A DNA stretch of 64,000 nt from a virus, in the IMG/VR virus record IMGVR_UViG_3300011115_000949, positions 35,849-99,848 of that record, one strand, 5' to 3'. Positions 31,842-58,448 of the stretch are shown here, one piece after another. The position numbers were made by a program, and so were the translations under genes. Within the stretch, counting starts at the first letter, position 1, and each line of letters begins with the position of its first letter. The notes under the pieces were generated by a model. That model was not told the DNA's origin. It made no database searches and saw only the letters and a list, made by a program, of their open reading frames with translations.

Positions 31842-33194
31842 TTATTTTAATTCTTCTTTAATAAGTTTAGCAATTAAAGAACGTACTTTTGATTCTCTTA
31901 ATCCAGTTTCTGTCATTCCTTGAAATGGTATATCTTTATCTGCTTCTAAAGGAAAAGCATAATCCATAATAGTATTGATTTGAGATGAATTTAAATCTGT
32001 GTTCTCAAGATACTTGAGTGCTGCATCTTTACTCATTTTATTTGATTCAATAGCACTTAGATGTTGATCTAAAACATCAGTATTTTCTTTTAATGAACTA
32101 TATGGTGGTAAATCTTTTTCTGTCCAACTTAATCCCAATCCTATTTTAAGTGCTTGTTGTCTCAAAGCTTCTGCTTCTTCTTTTTTTCCGTTATTATATA
32201 ATTTTTTGCCCTCATCATAAAGTTTAATTGCTTTTTTAGCTGTATCTTTATCATGTTTGGAATCTCCATCTGAAGGGTCAGTATCAAAATATGGATTTTC
32301 GCCAGTTACTATTTCTTTTAATTTAATTCTTTTTTCAGCACCCGGTGTTTTCATTTTTTTAACACCAGCAGAGTTTTGTGGTGTTACAGGCATTTCCTTT
32401 ACTTTTTTAGGCATTGAAGTTTTAGCTTCACTGTTACTTAATGTATCTTTAACGTTTGCTTTTACTTTTTCAACGTCAACGTCTAAATCACCATATCCAC
32501 TTGATTTGTGTTTACCTTTTGGTTCTACTGGTTGTTTTAATGATGGTGCTTCGTCTGTAAATCCAACACCTTCAACACCAAACATTCCATCTTTAGTGTA
32601 ATGTAAAGCATCTTTTGCTAAGTTTTTAACAACGATGTCTTTTAATTCATCTACAGTTTTGTCATGGTTTTTAGGATTTTTTAATTCAAGATAAAAACCT
32701 TTCATGATTTCGTTAAAATTAACGTTGTCAGCATTTTTCATGTCTGCGTTATTGTAAGCATTTTTACGATAATCTTCAACTTCTTTAGATACGTTTTTTT
32801 CTGTGGCTTTAACTGATTCGGATAAACCTCTCAAAGGTGGTTCCATTTTCATCGCTATGTCCGCTTCTTCTACTCCAAATTTTTCAGCTACTGCTTTAGT
32901 ACCCATGTTAAGATTTTTTCTATAAAAATCAACAGCTTGTTGAAGTTTTTTCTTATAATCTTCTGTTTCTTCAGCTAATACTTTTTTCCAATCTACAATG
33001 TTGAAACCTTTACTAACAACACCACCAATAGTATTTTCACTGATGATTTGTTTTGATTTTAATACATTTACAGTAGTATCAAAATCTAAAAGGTTAGTAA
33101 TGTGTTGTGGAAACAAGTGACGAGCTTGTTTTAAAAATTGTGCTTTATTTCCCTTACCACCAACGATTGAGTTGTAATGTTCTTGTAGTGTCAT
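31842..33194 (-). CDS. Putative prohead core/internal protein
   Basis: Between portal and protease; many I/L-x-E sites; ends LRESKVRSLIAKLIKEELK. Confidence 0.55.
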   Translation of the reverse strand: MTLQEHYNSIVGGKGNKAQFLKQARHLFPQHITNLLDFDTTVNVLKSKQIISENTIGGVVSKGFNIVDWKKVLAEETEDYKKKLQQAVDFYRKNLNMGTKAVAEKFGVEEADIAMKMEPPLRGLSESVKATEKNVSKEVEDYRKNAYNNADMKNADNVNFNEIMKGFYLELKNPKNHDKTVDELKDIVVKNLAKDALHYTKDGMFGVEGVGFTDEAPSLKQPVEPKGKHKSSGYGDLDVDVEKVKANVKDTLSNSEAKTSMPKKVKEMPVTPQNSAGVKKMKTPGAEKRIKLKEIVTGENPYFDTDPSDGDSKHDKDTAKKAIKLYDEGKKLYNNGKKEEAEALRQQALKIGLGLSWTEKDLPPYSSLKENTDVLDQHLSAIESNKMSKDAALKYLENTDLNSSQINTIMDYAFPLEADKDIPFQGMTETGLRESKVRSLIAKLIKEELK

Positions 33195-33195
33195 A

Positions 33196-33747
33196 TTATT
33201 TTTTATTAAATAATGTTAATAAATTGTTTGCGTTTTTAATCATGTTGTCTAATTGTTCTTTACCAAATTCAGTGCCTGGGAGTTCTTTAGCTGTATTGAA
33301 ATCAGGTTTTTCTTTATATGCCTTTTCAGTTTTAGCTTTGGCTTGTTTTAGTAAAGGTAACAATGTGTTTAATTTATTTTCAATTTCATCATAATCATCA
33401 ATTCGATCTGTGATAAATGATTTTAAATCACCATCTTGTAAATTTAATGAATTGATAAATGAGTCTGTTGATTCTTTTTCTTCTAATTTTTTCTTCCATA
33501 AATCTTTATGGTCAATAGTTTTAGAAGCTTTATGTAATTTTTCTACTGGAACTGGTTTCCAACCCAATTTATAGTAGTAGATGTTTTGAGCACCTTTAGC
33601 TTTTTTATTTGGATTGAATGCTACTGTTGGAGCATAATTAGCACTGTCACCAGTATTAAAATGTCCAGCATCTACACCAGCGCCGGTAGCACTCATTTCC
33701 TTTAATTTAGCACGGATAATTTCTTTTATTTTATCTTTATTATCCAT
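33196..33747 (-). CDS. Putative prohead core/internal protein
   Basis: Starts MDNKDKIKEIIRAKLKE; head operon context. Confidence 0.5.
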   Translation of the reverse strand: MDNKDKIKEIIRAKLKEMSATGAGVDAGHFNTGDSANYAPTVAFNPNKKAKGAQNIYYYKLGWKPVPVEKLHKASKTIDHKDLWKKKLEEKESTDSFINSLNLQDGDLKSFITDRIDDYDEIENKLNTLLPLLKQAKAKTEKAYKEKPDFNTAKELPGTEFGKEQLDNMIKNANNLLTLFNKK

Positions 33748-34594
33748 TTATCTTTTTCAATTCGTCAAGTAAATCACAATACTGTAATAAATTAACCATA
33801 TGATCGTTGTTTACTTTATCGTTTTTACCTAATTCAGCTAAAAGACCAATTGTTTCGGTTAATTTAATTTTAGTAACCTGATCGCTTGTTTTCTTGTTTA
33901 ATTCAAATAAGCGATTTTTAATTTCGATAGTTTTGGAATTATAGAATTCTTTTAATTTTACTGGGTTGTCTTCACAGTTGATGAATTCTTTAAGTATATC
34001 TTTTTTACTAGGACTAAAATTAGCGTATTTGCTGTTAAATTTATCTAATAAAAGTTTGTATGTTAAAATACGAGTACCTTTATCTGCTTTGTTTAATTCT
34101 TCAAAAACCTCTTCTGTTTTATTTTCTTTTTTAGATGTTGTAGAAGTTAAATGTTCTAATACAGCTAATTTATTTGTAATAACTTGTTCGGTTTTTGCTG
34201 CTTTTATTTCCACAGATTCAATCAATGTATATGTAGCAGCTTGAGCTTTGTAATTAGGCAATTTTGTTTTAAAGAATTGTTCTAAATCATAATGATTTTT
34301 AATTTCTTTAATTAAATTGTATTTTTGTCTTTTAAGTGCAGATTTATTTAATTGTTTTGCACTTTCAAGTACAGTGTCAATTACAAGGTTTGCTTTACCT
34401 TCCGTTAAGTTAGTACGTTTGGTTAAGCTTTCATATAACTTATACTCACGACCTAATTCTGTTTTGCTAAAGTATTTTTTTAAAATACCTAAAGCTTCGG
34501 AATTCTTGCCAGATAATGTATCAGCAGTGATTTGTCTGACTAAAAGTTCAAAGAGAATACCGGTGTTTTTAAATTTTGAATGTTTGATTAACAT
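33740..34594 (-). CDS. Hypothetical head-assembly protein downstream of the portal
   Basis: 284-aa helical ORF starting IKHSKFKNTGILFELL, with an ATATTTATAA motif upstream. Confidence 0.55.
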   Translation of the reverse strand: MLIKHSKFKNTGILFELLVRQITADTLSGKNSEALGILKKYFSKTELGREYKLYESLTKRTNLTEGKANLVIDTVLESAKQLNKSALKRQKYNLIKEIKNHYDLEQFFKTKLPNYKAQAATYTLIESVEIKAAKTEQVITNKLAVLEHLTSTTSKKENKTEEVFEELNKADKGTRILTYKLLLDKFNSKYANFSPSKKDILKEFINCEDNPVKLKEFYNSKTIEIKNRLFELNKKTSDQVTKIKLTETIGLLAELGKNDKVNNDHMVNLLQYCDLLDELKKING

Positions 34595-34630
34595 TTAAGT
34601 ATGCTTTTATTATAAATATATCAGGATAGA

Positions 34631-36496: not shown

Positions 36497-36504
36497 AGGT
36501 TAAA

Positions 36505-38486: not shown

Positions 38487-38754
38487 GTTTATTTTTATTT
38501 TGTTTACTTTTTTCTTTTAAAACTTCTAATTCTGCTTTATCTTTTTCTATTTCTTCTTTAAATTTTTCAGCTATAGAATTAAGTTCTAAAATTTGGGCTT
38601 GTTTTGCTTTAATATCTAAAGCAAGTGAATCGTTTTGTTGATTTAACTCTTTTAAACGATCTTTAATATTTAACGTTTGTTTATTTTGGAATACAAGTAA
38701 AACAAATAGAATAACTATTACAATATAAGGAATTATATTTTTAAGCTTACTCAT
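38410..38754 (-). CDS. Putative i-spanin-like protein
   Basis: N-terminal TM segment (IIPYIVIVILFVLLVF) followed by a long coiled coil. Confidence 0.5.
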   Translation of the reverse strand: MSKLKNIIPYIVIVILFVLLVFQNKQTLNIKDRLKELNQQNDSLALDIKAKQAQILELNSIAEKFKEEIEKDKAELEVLKEKSKQNKNKHDKERDRINNLDAKSVVSEFTDAFK

Positions 38755-39518
38755 ATGTTTTTTAAAGAATCTCTACCAGCAGCGTTAAATAAAAAATTCA
38801 TTAATGTTGGTGAAAATTTCTTATCCTTTGCTAATTTTAAAATAGCATCAATTTTAGCTTTATCATCTTTATTTTTCTTAACAGATGTTAAAAATCCATT
38901 AAATTTTTTAGTTTCCTCATCTGACAAGTTTTTAAAAGCTTGTGCAAGTTTATCTTTTTCTATTTCTTCTTTACTTTTTGGTTCTTCAGGTACCGATTCT
39001 TCTTCTTCTGGTTTTTCATAGTCGTCTTGCACTTCTACATCAGCATCGTCATCTTCTGGTTCTACTGTTGGTTCAGGTTCAGCTGTTGCTGTCTTAGCTG
39101 GTTTAGCTAAAACTTGAGCAAATGCTAATTTTAAAATATATGGGTTTAATGATGAAGTACTCAATGCTGTTTCTAATTCTTTTTGTGTTAAACCACCTTC
39201 AGATCCTTCAATAGCGGCTATTAAACGACCTTCAATAGTTTCAGGACCATATAATTCTTTAGCTAAAGTTATTTTAGTAGTATCACCTAATCTAATTTTA
39301 TTAACTTTACGATCTTCTTCAAGTTCAGATTCTTCTAATTCTACGTCACCACCGGCATTTAAATTTTTAATAGCATTAGTTTTAGCATCTGCTTTTAATG
39401 TATTAAATTTAGGATCTTTTGTTATTTTTTCTACTGCATCTTTACCGGCATATGTAGTTTCTGTTAATTCATTTATAATTTCTTCACGAATAAATTCGTA
39501 TAGTTCTTTACGTTTCAT
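38751..39518 (-). CDS. Tagged putative internal protein with winged-HTH-like domain
   Basis: MKRKELYEFIREEIINELTE leader; central domain aligns by eye with 40357..40647. Confidence 0.45.
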   Translation of the reverse strand: MKRKELYEFIREEIINELTETTYAGKDAVEKITKDPKFNTLKADAKTNAIKNLNAGGDVELEESELEEDRKVNKIRLGDTTKITLAKELYGPETIEGRLIAAIEGSEGGLTQKELETALSTSSLNPYILKLAFAQVLAKPAKTATAEPEPTVEPEDDDADVEVQDDYEKPEEEESVPEEPKSKEEIEKDKLAQAFKNLSDEETKKFNGFLTSVKKNKDDKAKIDAILKLAKDKKFSPTLMNFLFNAAGRDSLKNI

Positions 39519-39539
39519 TATATGGTTTAGTTATAAATA

Positions 39540-40070: not shown

Positions 40071-40071
40071 A

Positions 40072-40356: not shown

Positions 40357-40647
40357 TTACTCTCCTCCAGATAATACTCCTATTTTTTTAAGACTTTTAA
40401 CTTCAGGTTGAACCATTTTATATTTTTGTTTAATTGTTATTGCAAGATCTGTTGTAGACATACCATCTTTACCGGCGCGCTGCAGTGCATCTATTAATTT
40501 TTCAATCCAGTAACCTTTATAAAGTTGTTTTACTTTATTTGCTTTTTCAGAATTAATAATTGTAATACTTTTAGCGGTACGACCCTGTTTAGCTTCAGCC
40601 ATTTCTTTGGCTACTAGTTCACGAATTAATTTAGATAATTTATCCAT
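40357..40647 (-). CDS. Tagged small winged-HTH-like protein
   Basis: MDKLSKLIRELVAKEMAE leader; GMSTTDLAITI...VQPEVKSLKKIGVL is wHTH-like. Confidence 0.5.
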   Translation of the reverse strand: MDKLSKLIRELVAKEMAEAKQGRTAKSITIINSEKANKVKQLYKGYWIEKLIDALQRAGKDGMSTTDLAITIKQKYKMVQPEVKSLKKIGVLSGGE

Positions 40648-41630: not shown

Positions 41631-42119
41631 TTATTTTTGAAAAACTACAACATAAAACCCATCATCATCTTCTTCAGGATCTCCTTCACTTATATTTTCA
41701 TAAAGTATATTATAGTTTTGAAACATTGATTTTAATGTTTTTAAATTCGTATTGTAATCTTGAACTACTAAATATCCCCCAGATTTTAAAGCATCATCCA
41801 CTGTTTTTTTAATTTCTGGTGAGTATTGGAAATTATAAAATGAGTATGACATGTTAATAAGATTTCTAGGAGGTAATTTAATGTATTGATTTAAATCATG
41901 TATCTGATTATTAGGATTTCCATCTTTGGGGGTAGAAAATTTATCTATTACTATAGTTTTATTTCCAAAATCACTATATTTTCCTCCTCCAAAATCGTAT
42001 ATTTCTTCTGAATTTGGTTCTAGTTTTTTAGATAAATTATTAGCAGATATATATTTATCTCCCAAATCTAAATTATCTACTTTAAGGATTTCACTTAATA
42101 AATTTATTAATTTTATCAT
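41631..42119 (-). CDS. Class I SAM-dependent methyltransferase-like protein with N-terminal tag
   Basis: IYDFGGG, IVID, HDLN and LKSGGYLVV; leader MIKLINLLSE. Confidence 0.65.
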   Translation of the reverse strand: MIKLINLLSEILKVDNLDLGDKYISANNLSKKLEPNSEEIYDFGGGKYSDFGNKTIVIDKFSTPKDGNPNNQIHDLNQYIKLPPRNLINMSYSFYNFQYSPEIKKTVDDALKSGGYLVVQDYNTNLKTLKSMFQNYNILYENISEGDPEEDDDGFYVVVFQK

Positions 42120-42998: not shown

Positions 42999-43370
42999 GG
43001 CTATGAATCGGTCTATATATTATTTTATATTAATATAATCCTTCGCCTGAAGATAATTTTCTCCAAGCTGATTGAATATATTTCATTTCAGACATATCAT
43101 CTATATGATCACTAAAAAAGTTTATAAATTCTGATTTTGTGATTTCATTATGTCCGGAAAAAGTTTCATTAAAATCTAATAGTATATCTTCATCATCAAA
43201 TGAATCAGCATATTCTTGAGCATCACTAACACTAATAGTTTGTTCATCTTCATTTAACTGTGACTCAATGATCAATCCTGCGAGTTTTTGCATACGTTTA
43301 AATTCTTCGTTTAATGTTTGTTTTTTCATTTTAGTTTTGTTTTAATTGGTTATAAATCGGTCTGTATGTT
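42999..43370. repeat. 23-bp imperfect direct repeat flanking ORF 43030..43329
   Basis: ggctatgaatcggtctatatatt (42999-43021) versus ggttataaatcggtctgtatgtt (43348-43370); 19/23 identical. Confidence 0.7.
43030..43329 (-). CDS. Acidic putative internal head protein with RMQKLAG tag
   Basis: Starts MKKQTLNEEFKRMQKLAGLIIESQLNE. Confidence 0.65.
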   Translation of the reverse strand: MKKQTLNEEFKRMQKLAGLIIESQLNEDEQTISVSDAQEYADSFDDEDILLDFNETFSGHNEITKSEFINFFSDHIDDMSEMKYIQSAWRKLSSGEGLY

Positions 43371-43374
43371 TAAT

Positions 43375-44028
43375 TTAGAAAAATGATTCTTTATTTGCTT
43401 CAATAGCATCAAAATCTAGTTGTGGTTGATCTTTTTTAAGTTTAGTTAATGCTAAATCAAAAGCTATATCAAAATCAGAACGATAATTTAAATCCAAAGA
43501 TTCAGGTTCACCCATACTATCTTCAACAACATCATCAATATATTCTCTCATATATCCACCTTCTTCAGTATCTAAAAATGGATTAAATGCTTCATAAAGT
43601 GATTCTTTAAGTTCAGATGATTCTCCATTATGAGAGATTAAGTATATTTTATTGTATTTTGACATAAAATTATTTAATTCATCTTCACTAGTAATAGCTT
43701 TCCAATTATCAGGGTTATTTAAAAATGTTGTAATATAATTTATATCAATTATTCCGTAATTATCATTAAATATTTGAATTACTTCTGGGTTTTTAGATAA
43801 AGTGCCTGTTATAGATAAAATAGATTTTGAAGTATCTTTTATAGCTATATTATATACTATAAAACCTATTTTTTTAGGTTTAACGAATCTAGGTGCTAAT
43901 TTAGAATCATCAGAAACATATAATGTTATCCCATCATTTATTAAATCTGATGCTTTGTTTTCATTTATTTGAATTCCAGCAAGCTTTTGCATGCGTTTAA
44001 ATTCTTCAGATAGTATTTGTTTTTTCAT
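43375..44028 (-). CDS. Putative internal head protein with RMQKLAG tag
   Basis: Starts MKKQILSEEFKRMQKLAGIQINE; internal LKESLYE precedes an acidic second domain. Confidence 0.65.
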   Translation of the reverse strand: MKKQILSEEFKRMQKLAGIQINENKASDLINDGITLYVSDDSKLAPRFVKPKKIGFIVYNIAIKDTSKSILSITGTLSKNPEVIQIFNDNYGIIDINYITTFLNNPDNWKAITSEDELNNFMSKYNKIYLISHNGESSELKESLYEAFNPFLDTEEGGYMREYIDDVVEDSMGEPESLDLNYRSDFDIAFDLALTKLKKDQPQLDFDAIEANKESFF

Positions 44029-44595: not shown

Positions 44596-45066
44596 TTATT
44601 TTATTTTAGCTTTATACTGAGCTTCAGTGATTACACCAGCTAATTTTTGCATGTAAAGAAATGATTCGTTTAATGGTTTTTCTTCTTCCATATAATTTTC
44701 ATCCATTCCATTTTCAACCTCAGATGCCATTTCGTCTACCATTTCTTTGGTTTCTTCAGATTTTGGTTCTTCAGTTTTTTTCTTACCTTTACTTTTCATC
44801 TTTTCAAGTTGCTTTTCGTATTTTGCTAAACTTTTTTCAAGATGTTTTATTTCTTTTTCAATTTCTTTAACTTTACCTTTATCAAGCATTTCATGATATG
44901 CTTCATCTAAACCTTCCATAGCCATTTTAGATTTACGTTCTTCAATAGCTTCTTTAGTTTTAGCCATTTTAGCTTCTAAGGCGGCTACATTACCTGCTTC
45001 GTCAATTTCACGAATGTAGCTTTGAATAGATTCGCGTATAATTTGTCTAAGTGTTGAATTTTCCAT
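44596..45066 (-). CDS. Coiled-coil putative internal head protein tagged at both ends
   Basis: N-terminal MENSTLRQIIRESIQSYIRE; C-terminal PLNESFLYMQKLAGVITE. Confidence 0.6.
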   Translation of the reverse strand: MENSTLRQIIRESIQSYIREIDEAGNVAALEAKMAKTKEAIEERKSKMAMEGLDEAYHEMLDKGKVKEIEKEIKHLEKSLAKYEKQLEKMKSKGKKKTEEPKSEETKEMVDEMASEVENGMDENYMEEEKPLNESFLYMQKLAGVITEAQYKAKIK

Positions 45067-45098: not shown

Positions 45099-46385
45099 TT
45101 ATTTCTTATGTATTTTTAATTTTAAATTACCATCCCCCTTAATTATACGGTGCCACATATGTTTAGGTATGTGGATCTGTTCGTTTAATGAAGTAGGTAA
45201 CTGGTTGTCTAATTGTATTTTCCAATCAGTTTTACCAATAATTTCAATAGTACGTGCTTCGTTGTCACGATGCCACATTAATTCAATTGGATCAATGTTT
45301 GCATTAAATTCACGTATAATGTATTTATCTGTGGTTTCTATGTCTGTGTATGGCTTTTTATTTTCTTCTAAATCTTCTAATCCAGTGTCATCTTTTTTAA
45401 GATCTTTTTCAATATCTTTCATTTCACCAATAGCCCACTGTTTTTGAGATGAAGTTAAAGTACCATTAACTACATTTTCAATAAATTCAATAAATTCGTT
45501 TTCTGGGAGCTTATATACTTCTGTAAAGAATAATTCTCTTACACGAGAGTCATCTATTTTACTTTCAGTGTATAACCCATTTAACGCATCGTAAATAAAT
45601 TTACCATATTGTAAATCGCGAGGTTCGTTTGACAATTTATCTATGGCACCAATAATTGCTTTGTTTTTTTCTTTATCTCTACCAAATCCTTGTGTACCAA
45701 CAATTTCATACAATCCTTTTACGATTTCATGAACTAACATTGGAAAACAAATTGCTCTAGCTTTAATAACAAACTGTTCACTTTCTTCATCGTATTCCAT
45801 TTCGCTAACACCACCAGGCATGTTTTGATTTTGAGCAATCATTGCCAACATCATAGCAATAGCATTTTCATCATCGTAAATACCAAAAGATAATTTTAAA
45901 ATTTCGGCGTATTTGTCAACTAAACTTTCATCTAAAGCGTCTAAATATTCTTTAAACAAATAGAAAGCAAACGATCCCCTAATTGATGCTCCTTGAGTAA
46001 TACCGTTTATAATACGTCTTTTTGCTTTAAGTTTTTCAGGATCGTCTTGTCCAAAATCCGGTGAAGTAGGATCTTCTTCTTTTGATGGTGGAGGAAGTTT
46101 AATATCTGACATTGATGTTAATTTAGCATCAATTTTAATATTTGCGTAATTAATGATTGGGTATGCTTGTTCAACCATGTCTTTAGCTACTTCAGACAAT
46201 GCATCACGATATCCTTCTTCTGCTTTTGCAATTTCATCTAACAACTGGCGTGAACGCATAATAGTTTGTGTTAGACTTTTGTTACCAAGCATTTGCTTTA
46301 AAGATTGACCCGACTTGCCTTTTAGGGCAGCCATGGTTTCAGGCTTGAATATTTTTTCGTATTCTATTTCGTTTAAATTAGTCAT
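45099..46385 (-). CDS. Hypothetical protein with C-terminal cupin-like domain
   Basis: After DLEE: WHRDNEAR...IHIPKHMWHRIIKG, a cupin pattern. Confidence 0.55.
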   Translation of the reverse strand: MTNLNEIEYEKIFKPETMAALKGKSGQSLKQMLGNKSLTQTIMRSRQLLDEIAKAEEGYRDALSEVAKDMVEQAYPIINYANIKIDAKLTSMSDIKLPPPSKEEDPTSPDFGQDDPEKLKAKRRIINGITQGASIRGSFAFYLFKEYLDALDESLVDKYAEILKLSFGIYDDENAIAMMLAMIAQNQNMPGGVSEMEYDEESEQFVIKARAICFPMLVHEIVKGLYEIVGTQGFGRDKEKNKAIIGAIDKLSNEPRDLQYGKFIYDALNGLYTESKIDDSRVRELFFTEVYKLPENEFIEFIENVVNGTLTSSQKQWAIGEMKDIEKDLKKDDTGLEDLEENKKPYTDIETTDKYIIREFNANIDPIELMWHRDNEARTIEIIGKTDWKIQLDNQLPTSLNEQIHIPKHMWHRIIKGDGNLKLKIHKK

Positions 46386-46639
46386 TACTTTTTAAGTTTT
46401 AAAAAACGTTGAGCGATTTTATTTGCTAATTCTTTTTCTTCTTCTTTTAAAGAGGCTGAAGCTTTTGGTGCTGGTTCAACACCAGGTGCTGGTTTATCAA
46501 ATCCTCTACGTTTTGGAGTTGTGCCAGGTTTAGTAGTAGGAGGTGCAGTAGTTTTTTCTTTTTCTTTAGCAGGAGCATTTGCACTTACTGCTTTTTTTAC
46601 TTCTTCTCTAATGATTTCTTTTAATCTTGCTATTTTCAT
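46385..46639 (-). CDS. Small tagged Pro/Ala/Lys-rich protein
   Basis: Starts MKIARLKEIIREEVKKA. Confidence 0.55.
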   Translation of the reverse strand: MKIARLKEIIREEVKKAVSANAPAKEKEKTTAPPTTKPGTTPKRRGFDKPAPGVEPAPKASASLKEEEKELANKIAQRFLKLKK

Positions 46640-49308: not shown

Positions 49309-49311
49309 TTT

Positions 49312-49572
49312 TTATTTATTAGGTAAAAACCAATTTGAACAATATTTGTTTAAATTTTCTTTAGTTACAGGTTCTTTAGTTGTTGGATCAATTAATAGAT
49401 GGGTTTTCATATATTCTTGATAGTTTTTATTTCCACAAGCATATGCTCCTTCATCTTTATTATAATTAAGAAATTTACAAACATGGCATCCAAATCCTAC
49501 AGATGAATACATGTATTGAGGATATTGGTTTGTTACTTCTTCGTTTAATAATATGTCTGTTAGTTTAATCAT
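49312..49572 (-). CDS. Small Cys-rich tagged protein
   Basis: Refined start MIKLTDILLNEE; CHVC..C..C. Confidence 0.55.
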   Translation of the reverse strand: MIKLTDILLNEEVTNQYPQYMYSSVGFGCHVCKFLNYNKDEGAYACGNKNYQEYMKTHLLIDPTTKEPVTKENLNKYCSNWFLPNK

Positions 49573-49952
49573 TTTGTTTTCCCCCACGATTTACCTTTAC
49601 CTGGATCTTTACATGCTGCTGGTGTAGGACGACATGAAGGATATTTTGCACGTTTTTCACCTTTTTGGCGGCCACAAGGTTTACATTTACCATCGCGACA
49701 CGTGTTGCAATCTACCCAACCACCTGTTTTACCAGGAGCACCTTTACGTTTGAACCAAGTACGAAGTGTTTCTTTTTCGTTAATTTCTTCTTCTTTAATA
49801 TCTTTCCAAATTTTACCCTGACGGCATCTTACAATAGCTCCTGATTTGTAAGCTGATGGTTTATCGTATTTGCGGTCTGCAATACGTTTGCAACGGTCAG
49901 CTTTCTTTTTTTCTTCAAGAAGTATTTGTTTAAGTATGTGGGTAAGGTTCAT
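49569..49952 (-). CDS. Basic Cys-rich tagged protein
   Basis: MNLTHILKQILLEE leader; two basic domains separated by INE. Confidence 0.6.
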   Translation of the reverse strand: MNLTHILKQILLEEKKKADRCKRIADRKYDKPSAYKSGAIVRCRQGKIWKDIKEEEINEKETLRTWFKRKGAPGKTGGWVDCNTCRDGKCKPCGRQKGEKRAKYPSCRPTPAACKDPGKGKSWGKTK

Positions 49953-50326
49953 TAAATTCCTATATTGATGAGTTGTGGATCTTTTACAACAAATTTAACT
50001 ACACCTTTAATATTATTAATAGCACCAATAATCGCTTTAATATTTTCTATATCAAATTTACCATTAGCTTTAACATATGGATTTGGATCTACTTTAATAG
50101 TAACTCTATTATATTGTTGATCTGGTTTTGGTAAATTGGGGATATATTCTTCAGTATCCATTGTTGTAATACCAGTTACAGCTCTGATATCTGAGAATGT
50201 TTGAGATTGTGTTTTATCTTTATCTGTGGTAACTAGTAAACCTTCAAGTTTATAAAGTTTTTCAGCATACCCCTCGTTAAGGATATTACGTATTTCTCTT
50301 CTAATTATGTTTCTAAGTTTATCCAT
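49952..50326 (-). CDS. Tagged hypothetical protein
   Basis: Refined start MDKLRNIIRREIRNILNE. Confidence 0.55.
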   Translation of the reverse strand: MDKLRNIIRREIRNILNEGYAEKLYKLEGLLVTTDKDKTQSQTFSDIRAVTGITTMDTEEYIPNLPKPDQQYNRVTIKVDPNPYVKANGKFDIENIKAIIGAINNIKGVVKFVVKDPQLINIGI

Positions 50327-50691: not shown

Positions 50692-50699
50692 AGTTTTAT

Positions 50700-51368
50700 T
50701 TACCAAAATCCTGAAAAGGATGATTTTAATCCTAATAATTTAGCATATCTTGGTAAGCGACAGCTCCAATATGATGCTTTTGTTTTATCTTTTTTATTAG
50801 CACAATCGTGACGTTTTGCAAACGCTTGACGTGCTTTTGGGTTATTAATTTTAGCTGACAAGCCAGTAGTGTCTCCAAAGCTAACTTTTTTAACTCCACC
50901 ACCTTTTTTTCTTACATATACATAGAATTTTTTAGATCCGCCACGTTTAGGTTTACCAATTGGTGGATTTTTCTTTTTCTTATCTGCTTCTTCAAGCTCA
51001 ACTTCTTCCATTAATAAATCTAAAGGTACTTTTTTACCTTCAAATATACCAAATTCACCTAAATCTGTTTCAACTAAAATTTCTTTATCTGTGTCGTTTA
51101 CGTGAATAGCGTTGCGAGAATATAAATAACGAGCTTCAGCCCACATATCTAAAAACGCATCTGAGCCGTAACGAAATAAATTTTCATTTATAGGTACTCT
51201 ATTTTCAACATGATATTTCATGTTTTCTGTCATAACAATCTTTGATGTAAGACTTTCGTTAAGTACAGGACCAGGATTTCCTACGTTTTTACATGAATGG
51301 CAACCACAATTACATTTATCGGGTTGTTTTGTTAATATTTCTCTAACTATATGTCTAATACGATCCAT
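50700..51368 (-). CDS. Tagged two-domain protein with basic C-terminal domain
   Basis: MDRIRHIVREIL leader; after LEE: KKFYVYV..VKKVSFGD..RHDC..YWSC. Confidence 0.6.
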   Translation of the reverse strand: MDRIRHIVREILTKQPDKCNCGCHSCKNVGNPGPVLNESLTSKIVMTENMKYHVENRVPINENLFRYGSDAFLDMWAEARYLYSRNAIHVNDTDKEILVETDLGEFGIFEGKKVPLDLLMEEVELEEADKKKKNPPIGKPKRGGSKKFYVYVRKKGGGVKKVSFGDTTGLSAKINNPKARQAFAKRHDCANKKDKTKASYWSCRLPRYAKLLGLKSSFSGFW

Positions 51369-51383
51369 GGTTATAAATATTAT

Positions 51384-53480: not shown

Positions 53481-53500
53481 ATATTTTATTTTGTTTGTTT

Positions 53501-53902
53501 TTAAGCGGTCATACTTTGTTTTTCAACACCTAATACTTGTGTCCTAACAAGCATAGTTAAAGTATTTCCGATTTGTTTAATTAATTTTTCGTCACCCAAT
53601 TGTTGAGCATTGGCTAATGCTTTTTGTAACAAGTCTTGGATGGTTTTTATTTCAGGTTTAATATCTAATTCACCTGTTGAAGCGGGTGCAACATTAGCTG
53701 TAGGTTCAGCTGTAGTATCCATTGTTGTTTCAGATGGTGGTGCTTCAGTTGATGCTGTTTCGTCACTACCCATGTTTAAGTCTACTGAATCGTCTTGTGG
53801 TGCTACGTCATTAGGTTCTTTTTTCTTTTTAGCTTCATTTAAATTTTTATATTCGTCTAATATAATTTCTTTTAAACTTTGGATGAACTGATGTTTTTTC
53901 AT
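53501..53902 (-). CDS. Tagged hypothetical protein
   Basis: MKKHQFIQSLKEIILDEYKNLNE leader, acidic linker, then LGDEKLIKQIGNT. Confidence 0.55.
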   Translation of the reverse strand: MKKHQFIQSLKEIILDEYKNLNEAKKKKEPNDVAPQDDSVDLNMGSDETASTEAPPSETTMDTTAEPTANVAPASTGELDIKPEIKTIQDLLQKALANAQQLGDEKLIKQIGNTLTMLVRTQVLGVEKQSMTA

Positions 53903-53943
53903 TATAGTGATTTTATTATAAATATGTGATATTTAATTAAATT

Positions 53944-54564
53944 TTAAGATTTATCGTGTAGATAATCGGTAAGAATTGAACCTATCGCACCTACTTTAGA
54001 CCTTAATAATATCCATTCATTTAATTGTAATTCGCGAGGTTGTTTATAGTATGATATAGTTAAAGCACCCACAAAATCGTCATTTAAATCTTTAATAGCT
54101 ATCATATAAAATGATTTAGTTTTATATTCTTTACCAATAACTGGGAATAACCCGCAGTCAGTTTGGTTGTTTTTAGTATCAGGGACATCAATTTCTCCAG
54201 CATTGTACAATGTTGAAAATACTTTTGGAAATAACGATACCGGGATATTTTGGAATGTTTCTTTTATTGAATGAGCATATTCAGTTGTGCGCTCATAAAA
54301 TATACTAAATTTTTTAATCGATTTACTGGTTGGGTAAAAATTGCCTCCGTTATGAAATTGTGATATACAAATACGATCACATTCTAATTCTTCTAAAAGT
54401 AACTCAAGTTGTTTATCTATTTTTTCGTCTGTGCAAATAGCTTTACCTAAAGCGTCACCTTTTTTAGTTAAAAATTTAGCTTTAACAAATTCAACAGCTA
54501 ATGGTCCTAATAAAGCTGTTATAAGAGCTACAAGTATTGTTAAAATAGAGTCAAGCATTGTCAT
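53944..54564 (-). CDS. Putative holin (single TM plus GAF-like domain, T4 gpT-like architecture)
   Basis: N-terminal TM segment ILTILVALITALLGPLAV, then LECDRICISQFHNG...IAIKDLNDDFVGALTISY, a GAF-like pattern. Confidence 0.5.
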   Translation of the reverse strand: MTMLDSILTILVALITALLGPLAVEFVKAKFLTKKGDALGKAICTDEKIDKQLELLLEELECDRICISQFHNGGNFYPTSKSIKKFSIFYERTTEYAHSIKETFQNIPVSLFPKVFSTLYNAGEIDVPDTKNNQTDCGLFPVIGKEYKTKSFYMIAIKDLNDDFVGALTISYYKQPRELQLNEWILLRSKVGAIGSILTDYLHDKS

Positions 54565-55118
54565 TTTTTGAGGCTTTGTAAGTATTTAATTGTTTCTTCT
54601 TTATCTTCTAGTAACTTTTTCTTTGAAGAACCAACCCAACGTTCTACATCACCATCTTCCGTGACATAAGAATCATTAGAACTGTTTATAACTTCGTCCA
54701 TCCAAGTACTATAGTCTTTGGTTACGTTGTCAATATCGCTGTTTATAATGTTTTTTTCGTATTCTTCCCATAAACCTAATTTGCGCAATTCAGTTTCAAA
54801 TTCTATTTGACAATTAAAACATCTTTTATATTGAATGTAAAATAATTTATCGTGTTTATGGTTCATTAACTGTTTGCAACCAGAACAAAACAATGGTAAA
54901 GTTACAGATTTTTTAGCTTTATCCCATTTAGTTAAATTTTGTTTAATGCCATTTTTAATAGTCCAAGTACGACCACCTTCTTCCCACACATCACCTTCAT
55001 TATGAAAATCCTGTTGTTTTGAATAACCTACACCGGATGTGGTACGTTCGCCTGCTTTACCTTTAACTATATTACGCAGTCTTTGAACGTCTTTATTTTT
55101 AAATTCTTTATTTAACAT
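54561..55118 (-). CDS. Hypothetical protein with CxxC..CxxC
   Basis: EGDVWEEGGRTWTIKNGIKQ, CSGC and CFNC. Confidence 0.6.
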   Translation of the reverse strand: MLNKEFKNKDVQRLRNIVKGKAGERTTSGVGYSKQQDFHNEGDVWEEGGRTWTIKNGIKQNLTKWDKAKKSVTLPLFCSGCKQLMNHKHDKLFYIQYKRCFNCQIEFETELRKLGLWEEYEKNIINSDIDNVTKDYSTWMDEVINSSNDSYVTEDGDVERWVGSSKKKLLEDKEETIKYLQSLKK

Positions 55119-55121
55119 AAC

Positions 55122-55673
55122 TTACAGTCCTATTTGTTTTAATTTTTCAATTGTGTCAGCAGCAGATGTATGTAATATTCCTATACCACCTTTAGATTTC
55201 CATTCTTCAATGTTATCTGCTCTGTCGTCTATTAATATTCTATTTGGTTTAGAATAGTCTTGTTTATTTTCACGTTTAGCTAAAATTAATTTTACTTTTG
55301 GAGCATCTTTTGTTAATGGTAAATTATCTTTTACCCAAACACGTTTACCATAACGTGATGATGGTTTTTGAGATGGTGCTGATAGTAACATTGGTTTGTA
55401 TTTTTCTATATAACTCCAAAGTTGTTTTCCATCAGGCATCCAAGGCATTTTAGCCCAAAATTCAAATCCTACTTTATCGTCTATAAGTTTCCAAAACTGG
55501 CTTTTACTAAATTTAGCCTGGTATTCGTCAGGTGTTAAACCTCCAAAGTATTCAAAACGCTTGTCAAAGTCAGTTAAAACACCATCCATGTCACAAAATA
55601 TTTTATATTGAGCGACCTGAGCGGCTTGTTCTTCTTCCTTTAATTGTTTATATAACGCTGTTAATTTATACAT
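55122..55673 (-). CDS. HAD-family 5'(3')-deoxyribonucleotidase-like protein with N-terminal tag
   Basis: IFCDMDGVLTDF, LLSAP, KRVW and ILIDDR. Refined start MYKLTALYKQLKEEE. Confidence 0.8.
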   Translation of the reverse strand: MYKLTALYKQLKEEEQAAQVAQYKIFCDMDGVLTDFDKRFEYFGGLTPDEYQAKFSKSQFWKLIDDKVGFEFWAKMPWMPDGKQLWSYIEKYKPMLLSAPSQKPSSRYGKRVWVKDNLPLTKDAPKVKLILAKRENKQDYSKPNRILIDDRADNIEEWKSKGGIGILHTSAADTIEKLKQIGL

Positions 55674-57528
55674 TTTTAATTGAATCTTCCCAATTTCTAA
55701 AACACATATTTCCATGCTCATATGCTTCACGTTCCAGTTGGTCTAATTCTCCACCTTCATTTGTATTAGTGGTGTGAATGTTATTTAGTCGACCTTCGTT
55801 ATCTTGAATACGGTGAATCATCTCATGAGCGTATGAACGTAATATATCTTTTGGATGACGGCCAAGGGTAAATAAAGTGATTGAACAACTTGAGGGATCG
55901 TAATATGCTGTTTTACCTAAAATGTTTGAAGCGTTTTCAGAATCGTTGTTTATTATTTTTAATTTAGGTAATGGTTTGATATTCATACCACTATCTAACA
56001 TATATTTAGTTAACGATGCTAATGCGCTTTTAAAATCTGTGGGTTGTTCATGTTGGCAACCACAGCTTTCTGAGATGTTAGTTATTCCTAATGCATTTTT
56101 ATATCCTTCAGGTGTTATTCCATCTGGTACATATGGGGTTAGATCTGCTCCAGCTTTTAGTGCTATTCTTACATTTGTTGCACTTAGATTTCCAGCTGCA
56201 CTATCGTAATTTTTTATTGTTACATTTGGTGGAACCATTCCATATCTGCCAGAATCCCCTTCTTTTCCAAATACTGCAATGTATTGTTGATCTGGATTCT
56301 TTTCAAATATTTTATAAGCTGCCTTTACAGGACTGTTAAGTGGGACTGGAAGTTTTGGGTCTGATGATAGCATCACCTTAACATTCTCTGGAAGGTTTGC
56401 TAGTTTAAAAATAGCTAAACTCTGCTCAGCAGATACAGGCATTTGAGTCTCGAGTTTTTCTCTAGTTTTTTTATCGGTTTTAGTTGAGTCTGGTTCAGTG
56501 TTAGGTGACACTAAGACAAGTACTTCACTAGCATCTTCAGCTGCTGCTTTAATTCGAGCTATATGATCTTTATGAGGTGGTTTAAATTTACCAGGGAATA
56601 CAGCTATTGGTTTTTTAGGTTGGGTCTCATCTTCTAGAATAAAAGATTTTACTAATTCCATTACTAATGGATTATATTTTTCCTCTAAAGAAGCTACTGT
56701 GTCTAAAGCTTGTTGTTTTTTAGTACCTTTTTCAGTTCCTACCTCAGCATCTCCTACACGTATATTTTTCTTAAACATTCCTTTAAGACGGTCTATTGAT
56801 CTTCTGTTTTTAAATTCTTTAACTTTAGATATAATATCATTAAATTTATCTTTTTCAATGTTGATATTCAGATATTTAATTATAGTTTTAATATCATCAA
56901 AATTATTTGATTTCCATATTTCCTTACCTTCATTTTCTCCTACAGGAACAATCCTTAATGATAGGCCAGATGGATTTAAATTAAAATCATATTCTTCTCC
57001 TTCACCTGGTTTTTTAGCATTATCTATACCTAGTTCTTTAAATAAATTTTCTATTTGTTTTTCATCTAATTCACTAAAAATAGTTTTAACTAAACCTATA
57101 GCCATTACTTGTTCTTGAGCAGGTAAATCTAACATTTTATATGTAAATTTCCCTTCTTCTTTAGATACAGTTACAATATTATCTATTTGAACATATTCTC
57201 CTTCTTTACCAGCTATTGGATATAAAGTAGAAACTATATTCCCATGTATAAAATATTTTTTGTTACCCTTTTGTGGTATTTCAGGGATTTCACTAACTTG
57301 TGATAAAAATTTAGCTAATTCTTGTTTTAGTTCTTTTTTATCACCTTCGGGATAGGATACAACAACATCAATATCTCCAAAAATATTTTTTTCAGGTCTA
57401 GAGCGTACACCTGTGATTTTGTAAGATTTATCTAAACCTAATGGTTTTAGGATATTTTCTCTATAATCACGGATTGTCGCTTTTAAATTTTCTTTATTTA
57501 TACGAGATCCACCAGCTGCTCCACTCAT
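55666..57528 (-). CDS. Three-domain protein: Pol-beta-like nucleotidyltransferase, cytidylyltransferase-like domain, HEXXH metalloprotease-like domain
   Basis: ITGVRS....FGDIDVVV..VQID; AVFPGKFKPPHKDH..LSATNVR; YAHEMIHRIQ..LEREAY. Confidence 0.7.
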   Translation of the reverse strand: MSGAAGGSRINKENLKATIRDYRENILKPLGLDKSYKITGVRSRPEKNIFGDIDVVVSYPEGDKKELKQELAKFLSQVSEIPEIPQKGNKKYFIHGNIVSTLYPIAGKEGEYVQIDNIVTVSKEEGKFTYKMLDLPAQEQVMAIGLVKTIFSELDEKQIENLFKELGIDNAKKPGEGEEYDFNLNPSGLSLRIVPVGENEGKEIWKSNNFDDIKTIIKYLNINIEKDKFNDIISKVKEFKNRRSIDRLKGMFKKNIRVGDAEVGTEKGTKKQQALDTVASLEEKYNPLVMELVKSFILEDETQPKKPIAVFPGKFKPPHKDHIARIKAAAEDASEVLVLVSPNTEPDSTKTDKKTREKLETQMPVSAEQSLAIFKLANLPENVKVMLSSDPKLPVPLNSPVKAAYKIFEKNPDQQYIAVFGKEGDSGRYGMVPPNVTIKNYDSAAGNLSATNVRIALKAGADLTPYVPDGITPEGYKNALGITNISESCGCQHEQPTDFKSALASLTKYMLDSGMNIKPLPKLKIINNDSENASNILGKTAYYDPSSCSITLFTLGRHPKDILRSYAHEMIHRIQDNEGRLNNIHTTNTNEGGELDQLEREAYEHGNMCFRNWEDSIKNV

Positions 57529-57533
57529 AATAA

Positions 57534-58448
57534 TTAAATATTTTCAGGTGTATATGCACCAGCACGTTTTAAAGCTTCTTTAAATAAATCTAATATTTTT
57601 GATTGATCTTCAATTTTAAGATTATTTTTAATATAATTCATTAACTTATCATAATTATTAATTATTTCTAAAGTTAATGGTTGTGGTGGTTGATATTCTT
57701 GATTAAATGTTTCTAAAGCACCTTGAGGTTTATCAGCTATAATTTCACCTGTTTCTTTACGAATAAATCCTTTACCACTTTTAAAAGTATATCCTAAAAC
57801 TGCAAACATAGCTAACATTAATTGTCCTCTATGTAATCCTTTAATTTGGGGATTATCTTCAGGTAATTCAGAATTATATCTAAATTTTAACCAATCCATG
57901 TCTCCTGAGTCTAAATCAAGTTGTGTTCTTGAATCTAATTTTTCTCCAGTTAAAGCATATTGTGGGTATGAAAAATGGATTGTACCTCCATTTATAGCTT
58001 TATTACTAGCAAATAAATCTCCACCAGTATTGTTAATTTTATTTACTACAGTATCCAATAATGCTCTAATTTGAACTTGTTCATCTGTGGCAGTACGAGA
58101 AGATTTTTTAAATTTCTCATATAAGTTATTATACTCGTTAGTATCTACTCCCCATCCTTCTATATCTATTTTTCCATTTTTAAAAAAATATTCTGAGGAG
58201 TATGCTAAATCAACATCTCCGGATTGTGGTTTTCTGCCTGTTGAGCCTAACCAATTGCTTGTATCATTTAAAGAATTAAATGTAGATTTTTTATTTGGAA
58301 ATATTTTTCCTAAATCTTCAACAAATTTTTTAATTGTTGATGCTATATTATCTTTATCTATATTTTGTGTATCGTATTCTGTATTTTTGAATACATTACC
58401 TCCTTCATTAAGATATATTTCTTTTAAAAGTCCAACTAAAGATATCAT
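57534..58448 (-). CDS. Pol-beta superfamily nucleotidyltransferase with N-terminal tag
   Basis: WLGSTGRKPQSGDVDLAY..TQLDL; leader MISLVGLLKEIYLNE followed by GGNVF. Confidence 0.7.
   Translation of the reverse strand: MISLVGLLKEIYLNEGGNVFKNTEYDTQNIDKDNIASTIKKFVEDLGKIFPNKKSTFNSLNDTSNWLGSTGRKPQSGDVDLAYSSEYFFKNGKIDIEGWGVDTNEYNNLYEKFKKSSRTATDEQVQIRALLDTVVNKINNTGGDLFASNKAINGGTIHFSYPQYALTGEKLDSRTQLDLDSGDMDWLKFRYNSELPEDNPQIKGLHRGQLMLAMFAVLGYTFKSGKGFIRKETGEIIADKPQGALETFNQEYQPPQPLTLEIINNYDKLMNYIKNNLKIEDQSKILDLFKEALKRAGAYTPENI

What the first reader, a model, noticed from the sequence alone, without database searches (positions are those of the whole stretch)
31842..58448. About 15 more ORFs begin with short amphipathic leaders, most ending in I/L-x-E: second and third tag families
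Seen, family B: KIKEIIRAKLKE (33196), LYEFIREEIINELTE (38751), LSKLIRELVAKEMAE (40357), LRQIIRESIQSYIRE (44596), LKEIIREEVKK (46385), LRNIIRREIRNILNE (49952), IRHIVREIL (50700), LKEIILDEYKNLNE (53501), and C-terminal VRSLIAKLIKEELK (31842). Seen, family C: MIKLINLLSE (41631), MIKLTDILLNEE (49312), MNLTHILKQILLEE (49569), MYKLTALYKQLKEEE (55122) and MISLVGLLKEIYLNE (57534). The capsid protein (SLLE) and protease (LLVE) have matching N-terminal sites. Primase, nuclease, kinase, glycosylase and tail proteins lack such leaders. Inference: most of this hypothetical-gene region encodes a large, protease-matured internal head proteome with several docking peptides.
Basis: partly seen in the sequence, partly recalled or inferred. 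Interest (0 to 1): 0.8.

Follow-up and report, generated by a model that had tools for sequence, protein, structure and literature searches.

The report
T4-style capsid-loading leader peptides
An uncultured T4-like phage of Flavobacteria puts short N-terminal helices ending in its head protease's cutting motif on about 15-20 unrelated proteins, so these are probably loaded into the capsid, trimmed and delivered with the DNA as phage T4 does with its internal proteins, though neither cutting nor packaging has been measured.

Summary
They are far more alike than chance or composition allows.

The window is part of a 99.8-kb contig of a distant T4-like myovirus. It has a gp23-type capsid protein and a gp21-type S77 prohead protease, and its nearest isolate is Flavobacterium phage immuto.

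The leaders share the spacing of the T4 capsid targeting sequence, hydrophobic-x-x-hydrophobic-hydrophobic-x-Glu. In relatives each leader varies freely, but [I/L/V]-x-E stays exactly at the start of the conserved mature domain.

The strongest test used the 57534 nucleotidyltransferase family across 1.84 billion representatives. Thirty-six homologues start directly at the mature G-G-N-V-F. Fifty-four have something in front of it, and 48 of those have hydrophobic-x-E at the joint.

Leaders are gained, lost, swapped between classes and stacked in tandem among orthologues. Eight leader genes sit behind the promoter motif of the structural genes.

The T4-like reading is well supported by comparison but is not shown experimentally. 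"Most of the region" is too strong (13-17 of 37 genes), and B and C grade into each other.

This scan has reported similar leaders on other T4-like phage DNA.

The parts
57534..58448 (-). Pol-beta-type nucleotidyltransferase with a 15-residue C-type leader (58404-58448); predicted cut after E15, before G-G-N-V-F
   Evidence: Among 18 orthologues the only invariant leader positions are M1 and E15, followed by G16, G17 and F20. 38 distinct leaders all end [ILV]-x-E. The immuto orthologue starts M-G-G-N-V-F. For the junction test. AF2 gives helix 4-15 and pLDDT below 50 at residues 10-20. Foldseek gives weak Pol beta matches.
55122..55673 (-). HAD 5'-nucleotidase (NT5C) with a C-type leader (55635-55673) ending L-K-E
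   Evidence: phrog_2643 E 1e-29, matching from protein residue 22 to profile position 6. Orthologues keep [LI]-K-E or L-L-E ahead of the D-M-D-G-V-L core.
53501..53902 (-). 133-aa protein with a 23-residue B-type leader (53834-53902) ending L-N-E before A-K-K-K-K
   Evidence: Orthologues carry a family A or family D leader in front of a B-like segment. All end L-x-E before A-K-K-K-K. The late motif lies 13 nt upstream.
50700..51368 (-). 222-aa Cys-cluster protein with a B-type leader (51339-51368). A second invariant L-N-E lies at residues 36-38.
   Evidence: B leader present in 12 orthologues. Invariant C-x-C-G-C and P-x-x-N-E. AF2 gives helix 2-14 followed by a disordered stretch, at low confidence. 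The late motif lies 2 nt upstream.
49952..50326 (-). 124-aa protein with an 18-residue B-type leader (50273-50326) ending L-N-E before G
   Evidence: Orthologues end L-S-E or L-R-E before the conserved K-L-Y-K core.
49569..49952 (-). Basic DUF5872 protein with a 13-14-residue C-type leader (49911-49952) ending L-L-E-E
   Evidence: Pfam DUF5872 E 1e-7, starting at residue 15. Orthologues switch between C-like and B-like leaders.
49312..49572 (-). 86-aa Cys-rich protein with an 11-residue C-type leader (49540-49572) ending L-N-E
   Evidence: ATGA start overlap. One orthologue is leaderless and starts at the conserved M-Y-S core; another has a leader.
46385..46639 (-). 84-aa basic Pro/Thr-rich protein with a B-type leader (46604-46639), core I-I-R-E
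   Evidence: Orthologues carry the full 20-residue leader ending L-x-E before N. This copy has lost the second Glu.
44596..45066 (-). 156-aa Lys/Glu-rich helical protein with a B-type leader at its N-terminus (45007-45066) and a family A motif at its C-terminus
   Evidence: The N-terminal ~45 residues are conserved in proteins of 155-475 aa. Sequence. The late motif lies 12 nt upstream.
41631..42119 (-). 162-aa protein with a 10-residue C-type leader (42090-42119) ending L-S-E
   Evidence: It has the same length and hydrophobic positions 4, 7, 8 and Glu 10 as the T4 CTS. No orthologues were recovered.
40357..40647 (-). 96-aa basic protein with an 18-residue B-type leader (40594-40647) ending M-A-E
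   Evidence: Late motifs lie 4 and 57 nt upstream.
38751..39518 (-). 255-aa protein with a 20-residue B-type leader (39459-39518) ending L-T-E
   Evidence: Orthologues mostly end L-x-E at residue 20. The late motif lies 12 nt upstream.
33196..33747 (-). 183-aa head-module protein, placed between portal and protease like T4 gp67/68, with a 17-residue B-type leader (33697-33747) ending L-K-E before M-S-A-T-G
   Evidence: 59 orthologues. The leader varies, and L-x-E before [MI]-S-[AT]-T-G is kept.
31842..33194 (-). 450-aa head-module protein with a B-like motif at its extreme C-terminus (31845-31886)
   Evidence: The C-terminal motif is present only in the closest relatives.
31241..31840 (-). gp21-type prohead serine protease (Peptidase_S77), with its own L-V-E at residue 7
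   Evidence: Pfam E 3.9e-28. The N-terminal L-L-[IV]-E-T is kept in 80 relatives and resembles T4 gp21 L-L-I-E-T.
29428..30435 (-). gp22-position scaffold protein whose C-terminus carries the family A motif
   Evidence: Position between protease and capsid gene. The C-terminal motif is conserved in 66 relatives and in phage Mel-JY01.
27737..29395 (-). gp23-type major capsid protein with L-L-E at residues 7-9 and 33-35
   Evidence: tblastn gives 58% identity to the immuto capsid protein, with hits to thousands of T4-like phages. Both sites are invariant in relatives. The N-terminus aligns with the T4 gp23 propeptide.
30635..31213 (-). 192-aa protein with a family A leader (context; subject of another finding)
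   Evidence: The late motif lies 16 nt upstream.
43030..44028 (-). Two genes (43030-43329, 43375-44028) with family A leaders ending I-I-E and I-N-E (context)

Best explanation
The leaders are the functional counterpart of the T4 capsid targeting sequence.

Proposed mechanism:
1. Late in infection the tagged proteins are made together with the structural proteins.
2. Their 10-23-residue amphipathic N-terminal helix docks them onto the scaffolding core of the assembling prohead.
3. After the shell closes, the gp21-type S77 protease cuts after the Glu of the [I/L/V]-x-E that ends each leader.
4. The mature cargo stays inside the head and enters the host with the DNA.

The cargo includes a Pol-beta-type nucleotidyltransferase, a HAD 5'-nucleotidase, a basic DUF5872 protein, Cys-cluster proteins and several small orphans.

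Shown: the leaders, their enrichment, their modularity, the fixed Glu at the joint and the protease gene. Inferred: docking, cleavage by this protease, packaging and injection.
For: 1. T4-type head module with an S77 protease.

2. T4 rules from the literature. gp21 cuts after L/I-X-E. The first 10 residues of IPIII suffice for packaging, with residues 4 and 7 for targeting and 8 and 10 for processing (PMC9026906). The CTS sequence is given in PMC8442874. The leaders here have the same hydrophobic spacing (i, i+3, i+4) and Glu at i+6. The shortest C-type leaders also have the same length and absolute positions.

3. Enrichment at N-termini over internal, C-terminal, shuffled and reversed-motif controls, in this genome and in immuto.

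4. Across orthologues the leader drifts, but [ILV]-x-E stays at the joint.

5. Junction test on the 57534 family. Of 90 representatives containing the domain start:
- 36 begin M then G-G-N-V-F.
- 28 of 34 with short extensions and 20 of 20 with long ones have hydrophobic-x-E directly before it.
- 3 more have Y/W/T-L-E.
- 2 have a leader ending L-S-E placed in front of the old Met.
- In 27 IMG/VR loci the result is the same: 15 with leaders, all with the site; 10 leaderless; 2 fused. S77 was found in 4 of 5 of their records.

6. Leaders are exchanged between classes, stacked in tandem, or absent on the same cargo.

7. AF2 shows the leader helix detached, with the cut site in a stretch of pLDDT below 50.

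8. Eight leader genes lie directly behind the TATTTATA[AT] motif that also precedes 11 tail, baseplate and head genes.

9. The motif is kept at protein level, not DNA level.

10. A B-leader gene sits in the gp67/68 position of the head module.
Against: - There is no virion proteome or N-terminal data for this phage or any close relative, so cleavage and packaging are untested.
- Cargo pI is mixed (4.1-10.1), unlike the uniformly basic T4 internal proteins.
- Some copies lack a clean terminal site (46385; the 52487 family).
- The same motif at the terminase N-terminus is part of the conserved terminase fold, so such helices also occur for ordinary reasons.
- Fifteen to twenty cargo species would be many for a T4-sized head.
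- The junction test was run on one cargo family only.
- The 20 'internal' cases may be fusions of an upstream gene to a leader-bearing gene, and so not independent evidence.
- The contig is about 61% complete.
Confidence: 0.68

Rival explanations
1. The leaders are uncleaved amphipathic helices with another shared job. Possibilities are oligomerisation, binding a common phage or host partner (for example the phage's own GroEL/GroES), or transient membrane association. On this view the terminal Glu is just part of a Lys/Glu-rich helix.
For: - Strong helical amphipathicity.
- The 44596 family keeps about 45 N-terminal residues, more than a simple tag.
- The terminase has a similar helix as part of its fold.
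- The phage encodes GroEL/GroES.
Against: - The reversed motif is not enriched.
- Glu is invariant exactly at the joint while neighbouring positions vary.
- Homologues without any extension begin exactly after that Glu, and 51 of 54 with an extension have Glu there.
- The cut site lies in a predicted flexible stretch.
Confidence: 0.12
2. The leaders are propeptides removed by the S77 or another Glu-specific protease, but they act as inhibitory pro-sequences or timing devices in the cytoplasm. On this view they are not capsid-loading signals and the cargo is not packaged.
For: - The mature N-terminus of the NTase is always Gly, whether produced by a cut or by Met removal. This suggests a free N-terminus matters for activity.
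- The enzymes (NTase, nucleotidase) have plausible cytoplasmic roles.
Against: - From the T4 literature read, gp21 acts on proteins assembled into the prohead core.
- Leader genes share the structural-gene promoter motif.
- One leader gene lies inside the head module.
- Family A leaders copy the scaffold C-terminus.
Confidence: 0.1
3. The shared leader is a recognition sequence for a modifying enzyme (RiPP-like, for example radical-SAM/SPASM), as an earlier report of this scan concluded for a shared tag in phage RB43.
Against: - The only radical-SAM gene in the contig is QueE, inside the 7-deazaguanine operon, and there is no SPASM domain.
- No such maturase is annotated in the parts of the complete immuto genome that were read.
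- Cargo proteins are full-size enzymes.
- The contig is incomplete, so absence is not proof.
Confidence: 0.03
4. The similarity is a by-product of AT-rich codon usage and Lys-rich translation starts, with no shared function.
For: The genome is about 30% GC and rich in K, I, L, E and N. [IL]-x-E is common everywhere.
Against: - Internal, C-terminal, shuffled and reversed controls from the same proteins are all far lower.
- Leader presence is specific to certain gene clusters.
- Arg codons differ among leaders.
Confidence: 0.02

Closest known systems
Phage T4 capsid targeting sequence on internal proteins IPI, IPII, IPIII (and the propeptides of Alt, gp24, gp68), removed by the gp21 prohead protease
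   Same: - Same protease family (S77) and same head-gene order.
- A short N-terminal amphipathic leader on otherwise unrelated proteins.
- The same spacing of hydrophobic residues, and Glu at P1 with Ile/Leu at P3.
- The protease carries its own N-terminal site (T4 L-I-E-9, here L-V-E-7).
- Cargo repertoire varies between related phages.
   Different: - Leader sequences are not recognisably homologous to the T4 one.
- Most B leaders are twice as long (18-23 residues), with two candidate sites.
- Leader-bearing genes number about 15-20, against a handful in T4.
- There are several leader classes, including one that copies the scaffold C-terminus. They are combined in tandem and can sit at a C-terminus.
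- Cargo includes acidic proteins and enzymes.
- Nothing has been shown experimentally.
Propeptide-bearing head and ejection proteins of giant phages phiKZ, 201phi2-1 and SPN3US
   Same: Many (about 8-19) head proteins are processed after Glu by a gp21-related protease. Enzymes are packaged and ejected (PMC9026906).
   Different: Those proteases prefer a small residue at P3 (S/A-x-E); here P3 is Ile, Leu or Val as in T4. Propeptides there are long and dissimilar, not a short shared leader. This phage is T4-sized (its complete relative immuto has 160 kb), not a jumbo phage.
Encapsulin cargo-loading peptides (analogy; from my own knowledge)
   Same: A short portable peptide that addresses unrelated enzymes to the inside of an HK97-fold shell.
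   Different: Encapsulin peptides are usually C-terminal, bind the shell protein directly and are not removed. There is no protease or DNA packaging.

Membership tests
T4-type capsid targeting sequence / gp21-processed propeptide system | Phage encodes a gp21-type (Peptidase S77) prohead protease within a T4-type head module | tested here: met
   Pfam PF03420 E 3.9e-28 at 31241-31840. The gp23-type capsid protein and the portal, protease, scaffold, capsid order are syntenic with the immuto annotation.
T4-type capsid targeting sequence / gp21-processed propeptide system | A short N-terminal leader shared by proteins that are otherwise unrelated | tested here: met
   De novo cluster of N-termini. 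Cargo is unrelated by Pfam and PHROGs. The mature parts fall in separate clusters.
T4-type capsid targeting sequence / gp21-processed propeptide system | Leader ends in the protease motif L/I-x-E at the boundary with the mature protein | tested here: met
   Boundaries were defined independently, by leaderless orthologues, Pfam/PHROG domain starts and alignment conservation.
T4-type capsid targeting sequence / gp21-processed propeptide system | Sequence homology of the leader to the T4 CTS | tested here: inconclusive
   The spacing of hydrophobic residues and Glu is the same. Ten residues are too few to establish homology, and convergence on the same protease and core is equally possible.
T4-type capsid targeting sequence / gp21-processed propeptide system | Leader is removed by the prohead protease in the virion | not testable with these tools
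   Support is indirect only: the junction test and the flexible cut site. No proteome of this clade was found in the literature.
T4-type capsid targeting sequence / gp21-processed propeptide system | Leader is sufficient to load a protein into the prohead | not testable with these tools
   Needs a reporter-fusion experiment.
Giant-phage (phiKZ-type) head propeptides | Small residue (S/A/G) at P3 before Glu | tested here: not met
   P3 is I, L or V in nearly all junctions.
RiPP-like tag recognised by a radical-SAM/SPASM maturase | Maturase gene encoded with the tagged proteins | tested here: not met
   Only QueE matches Radical_SAM, and there is no SPASM match in the contig. The contig is 61% complete.

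The most novel reading that the evidence does not exclude
The clade uses a combinatorial addressing code. Three or four leader classes would be involved:
- A, a copy of the scaffold C-terminus;
- B and C, CTS-like leaders;
- D, seen in relatives.

They would bind different prohead partners, could be stacked or placed at either end, and would set where and in what number each cargo is loaded. The cargo would be an exchangeable kit of pre-made enzymes (Pol-beta NTase and HAD nucleotidase, encoded beside an untagged NMNAT-like gene) injected with the DNA to blunt nucleotide- or NAD-based host defences before any phage gene is expressed.
Probability: 0.25. Interest if true: 0.8.

Novelty: new variant of a known kind. 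Interest (0 to 1): 0.6.

Why it matters
If the reading holds, the leader is a sequence-only marker for proteins that an abundant environmental phage clade carries inside its capsid and injects. The protease search found more than 600 related IMG/VR contigs. Injected proteins are the class that has yielded anti-restriction and host-takeover factors in T4.

It would extend the T4 capsid-targeting principle to a distant lineage that infects Bacteroidota. It would also show the tag to be modular and frequently gained or lost on the same cargo.

A cultured relative, phage immuto, gives a direct experimental handle. The junction test (leaderless homologues start exactly at the predicted cut) is a general way to predict protease sites from metagenomes.

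Tried and rejected
1. Megablast of 25 kb against isolate phages gave no match.

2. Pfam and PHROGs on 20 tagged proteins found nearly all to be orphans.

3. A profile of the first 40 residues searched against 5.8 billion proteins mostly returned orthologues of the individual queries, not new cargo classes.

4. The terminase N-terminus matches the B motif but aligns with T4 gp17 residues 108 onward, so it was rejected as a leader.

5. The apparent link between 44596 and 31842 in single-linkage clustering is not supported by direct BLAST.

6. phmmer of the nucleotidase against PDB sequences gave no hit.

7. AF2 of the 50700 family had low confidence (pLDDT 61), so it was used only for the N-terminal helix.

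8. The search for DUF5872 homologues listed only close orthologues, so the junction test could not be repeated on that family.

Context was obtained through the search for related loci and the genome search instead.

10. No radical-SAM/SPASM maturase was found.

11. Cargo pI is not uniformly basic, so a simple 'DNA-binding internal protein' picture was dropped.
Full report
**What the window is.** The window is bases 35849-99848 of a 99.8-kb IMG/VR virus contig estimated at 61% complete. It has about 30% GC, and every gene is on the minus strand.

The protein at 27737-29395 is a gp23-type major capsid protein. It is 58% identical to that of Flavobacterium phage vB_FspM_immuto, with weaker hits to thousands of T4-like phages.

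The gene at 31241-31840 is a Peptidase_S77 (T4 gp21) prohead protease, E 3.9e-28. The terminase, portal, protease, scaffold, capsid order is syntenic with the annotated immuto genome. The phage is therefore a distant T4-like myovirus of a Bacteroidota host. This is the setting in which a T4-like capsid targeting system could exist.

**Observation check.** All eight B peptides, five C peptides and the C-terminal peptide of 31842-33194 are present as written.

- The start of 49312 is the ATG at 49572, which overlaps the upstream stop as ATGA.
- The start of 55122 is the ATG at 55673. Orthologues start there.
- Two more B-type leaders lie outside the window in the same contig, at G000 12580-12837 and 27162-28055.

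**Is it more than chance?**

- In an all-against-all comparison of residues 2-26 of 121 ORFs, 40 pairs scored 28 or more. The controls gave 13 (C-termini), 4 and 5 (internal windows) and 4-11 (shuffled N-termini).
- Clustering without prior knowledge gave one 18-member component made of families B and A. Family C is recovered only weakly.
- From T4 I took the spacing of the residues that matter in its capsid targeting sequence. These are targeting residues 4 and 7 and processing residues 8 and 10 (PMC9026906; sequence in PMC8442874). The resulting pattern is hydrophobic-x-x-hydrophobic-hydrophobic-x-Glu.
- That pattern occurs in the first 22 residues of 20 of 121 ORFs against 3.7 expected from internal windows (p 9e-10). 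The reversed pattern, which controls for amphipathic composition, gives 6 against 3.5.
- In immuto, an independent genome, the figures are 27 of 215 against 6.8 expected, and 13 against 7.2 for the reversed pattern.
- About five of the 20 hits are evident background (clamp loader, Hsp20, terminase and others), as expected.
- An HMM built only from relatives' leaders places its eight best hits in this genome at residues 4-20. The first internal hit is far weaker.
- The motif is conserved at protein level, not DNA level. Arg is encoded by CGT, CGC or AGA, and nucleotide identity is 0.55.

**Comparative evidence.** I fetched 53 IMG/VR loci around orthologues of 57534, 80 around the protease (more than 600 exist) and 15 around 45099.

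Leader presence is a property of particular gene clusters:

| Cluster | ORFs with a leader |
|---|---|
| Primase | 0 of 53 |
| Exonuclease | 0 of 51 |
| Capsid protein | 0 of 38 |
| Scaffold | 0 of 67 |
| Tail genes | 0% |
| 57534 | 50 of 50 |
| 49952/50700 | 85% |
| 53501 | 89% |

Within each leader cluster the leader drifts in sequence and length. An [I/L/V]-x-E remains exactly where the conserved mature part begins:

- before G-G-N-V-F (57534);
- before M-S-A-T-G (33196);
- before A-K-K-K-K (53501);
- before N-x-P-A (46385);
- before the K-L-Y-K core (49952).

In the 18-sequence alignment of the 57534 family, the only invariant leader positions are M1 and E15.

Leaders are also modular:

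- The DUF5872 cargo has a C-like leader here and a B-like one in relatives.
- Orthologues of 53501 carry a family A or family D leader in front of a B-like segment.
- Orthologues of 49312 and 57534 exist with and without a leader.
- The immuto orthologue of 57534 begins M then G-G-N-V-F, exactly at the predicted cut.

**The strongest test.** I searched a profile of the 57534 family against 1.84 billion cluster representatives. It gave 299 hits at E 1e-3 or better. Among the 150 best hits listed, 90 contain the start of the conserved domain:

- 36 begin M then G-G-N-V-F.
- 34 have a short extension. Of these, 28 have hydrophobic-x-E directly before the domain, and three more have Y-, W- or T-L-E.
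- Two have a leader ending L-S-E placed in front of the old Met.
- All 20 in which the domain is internal to a larger protein have hydrophobic-x-E at the joint.

So the Glu is dispensable for the fold, yet it is nearly universal whenever anything precedes the domain. This is the signature expected of a processing site that regenerates the same Gly N-terminus.

A caveat applies to the internal cases. They look like fusions of an upstream gene to a leader-bearing gene, so they are not fully independent.

In 27 further IMG/VR loci the picture is the same: 15 with leaders, all with the site; 10 leaderless; 2 fused. The S77 protease was found in 4 of the 5 parent records searched, and the fifth is a 41%-complete fragment.

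**Structure and cargo.** AF2 of the 57534 protein (pLDDT 86.7) gives a helix at residues 4-15. Residues 10-20 are below pLDDT 50, and the core is confident from about residue 30. The leader is therefore detached and the cut site is flexible.

The fold matches Pol beta palm/thumb weakly. The sequence has the G-S...D-x-D nucleotidyltransferase motif.

Other cargo:

- a HAD 5'-nucleotidase (phrog_2643, E 1e-29, homology starting at residue 22);
- a basic DUF5872 protein;
- Cys-cluster proteins;
- orphans.

Cargo pI ranges from 4.1 to 10.1.

**Expression context.** The motif TATTTATA[AT] occurs 29 times on the gene strand and 6 on the other. Twenty-three copies lie within 60 nt upstream of a start codon. 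Nine of these precede eight leader genes, 11 precede tail, baseplate or head genes, and three precede other genes. I infer, but have not shown, that this is the late promoter.

**Comparison with T4.** In the T4 record, gp24, Alt and gp68 fit the same pattern. gp21 begins with L-L-I-E-T, like the protease here. The gp23 propeptide aligns with the N-terminus of this capsid protein. The capsid protein's first L-L-E is therefore probably not its final cut.

P3 is Ile, Leu or Val as in T4, not the small residue of phiKZ-type phages.

The differences from T4 are:

- longer B leaders with two candidate sites;
- 15-20 tagged genes;
- several leader classes that combine in tandem;
- a motif that can be C-terminal (31842, closest relatives only);
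- acidic and enzymatic cargo.

**Limits.**

- No virion proteome exists for this clade.
- The junction test was done for one family only.
- The terminase match is a false positive.
- B and C form a continuum.
- Only 13 of the 37 genes in the stated region carry B or C leaders, 15 counting the two family A genes, and at most 17 with borderline cases (52487, 53008). "Most" is therefore too strong.

**Rivals.**

- An uncleaved helix with another function is hard to reconcile with the junction test.
- A cytoplasmic pro-sequence is possible but fits the promoter and head-module context less well.
- A RiPP-like tag lacks a maturase.
- Composition is excluded by the controls.

**Novelty.** The principle is known from T4 and giant phages. 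I found no paper describing it in Bacteroidota-infecting or marine T4-like phages.

Earlier reports of this scan describe similar leaders on other uncultured T4-like phage DNA, including one beginning M-I-K-L like family C here. I class this as a new variant of a known kind. I put the T4-like mechanism at about 0.68.

Noticed in passing
L012 (T4 NC_000866) 18966-19130, gene 61.1: The 54-aa T4 protein gp61.1 begins with a 10-residue sequence very like the T4 capsid targeting sequence: the same hydrophobic positions 4, 7 and 8, and Glu at 10. I do not know of it being listed among T4 head proteins.
   Followed up: no
L009 (immuto) 103762-104310, 117587-118887; L049, L048, L050, L053 in relatives: A fourth leader class (family D) has an F-D-L-K-K-F-L-x-E-N-K-L core ending L-L-x-E. 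It heads several proteins in immuto and relatives and is stacked in front of B-like segments. It was not seen in this (incomplete) contig.
   Followed up: partly
window 44596-45066: One Lys/Glu-rich, apparently all-helical protein has a B leader at its N-terminus and the scaffold-type family A motif at its C-terminus, like a miniature scaffold or adaptor. Its first ~45 residues are conserved in proteins of 155-475 aa.
   Followed up: partly
window 8887-63331 and upstream contig: The motif TATTTATA[AT] occurs 29 times on the gene strand and 6 on the other, and usually lies 2-30 nt before start codons of structural and leader genes. It is a candidate late promoter and differs from the T4 late box.
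   Followed up: partly
window 50700-51368 and orthologues (A4): After the B leader comes an invariant C-x-C-G-C cluster and then an invariant P-x-L-N-E. The removable part may be about 38 residues long and contain a small Cys knuckle.
   Followed up: partly
P0124, L148 6001-8445: In some relatives the NTase is fused behind a ~210-residue N-terminal domain and ahead of a ~300-residue C-terminal part (815 aa). The leader and its I-N-E site are retained internally, which makes it a possible protease-jointed polyprotein.
   Followed up: partly
G000 9075-11477 (upstream of the window): The phage encodes GroEL, GroES and an Hsp20-type protein next to each other. The Hsp20 gene lies behind the late-type motif.
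   Followed up: no
L146 (Microcystis phage Mel-JY01) 8709-9173, 10875-11975, 13745-14470: This more distant T4-like cyanophage keeps the scaffold C-terminal family A motif and has B-like and C-like N-termini near its head genes. Its protease N-terminus reads L-L-I-D rather than L-L-I-E.
   Followed up: no
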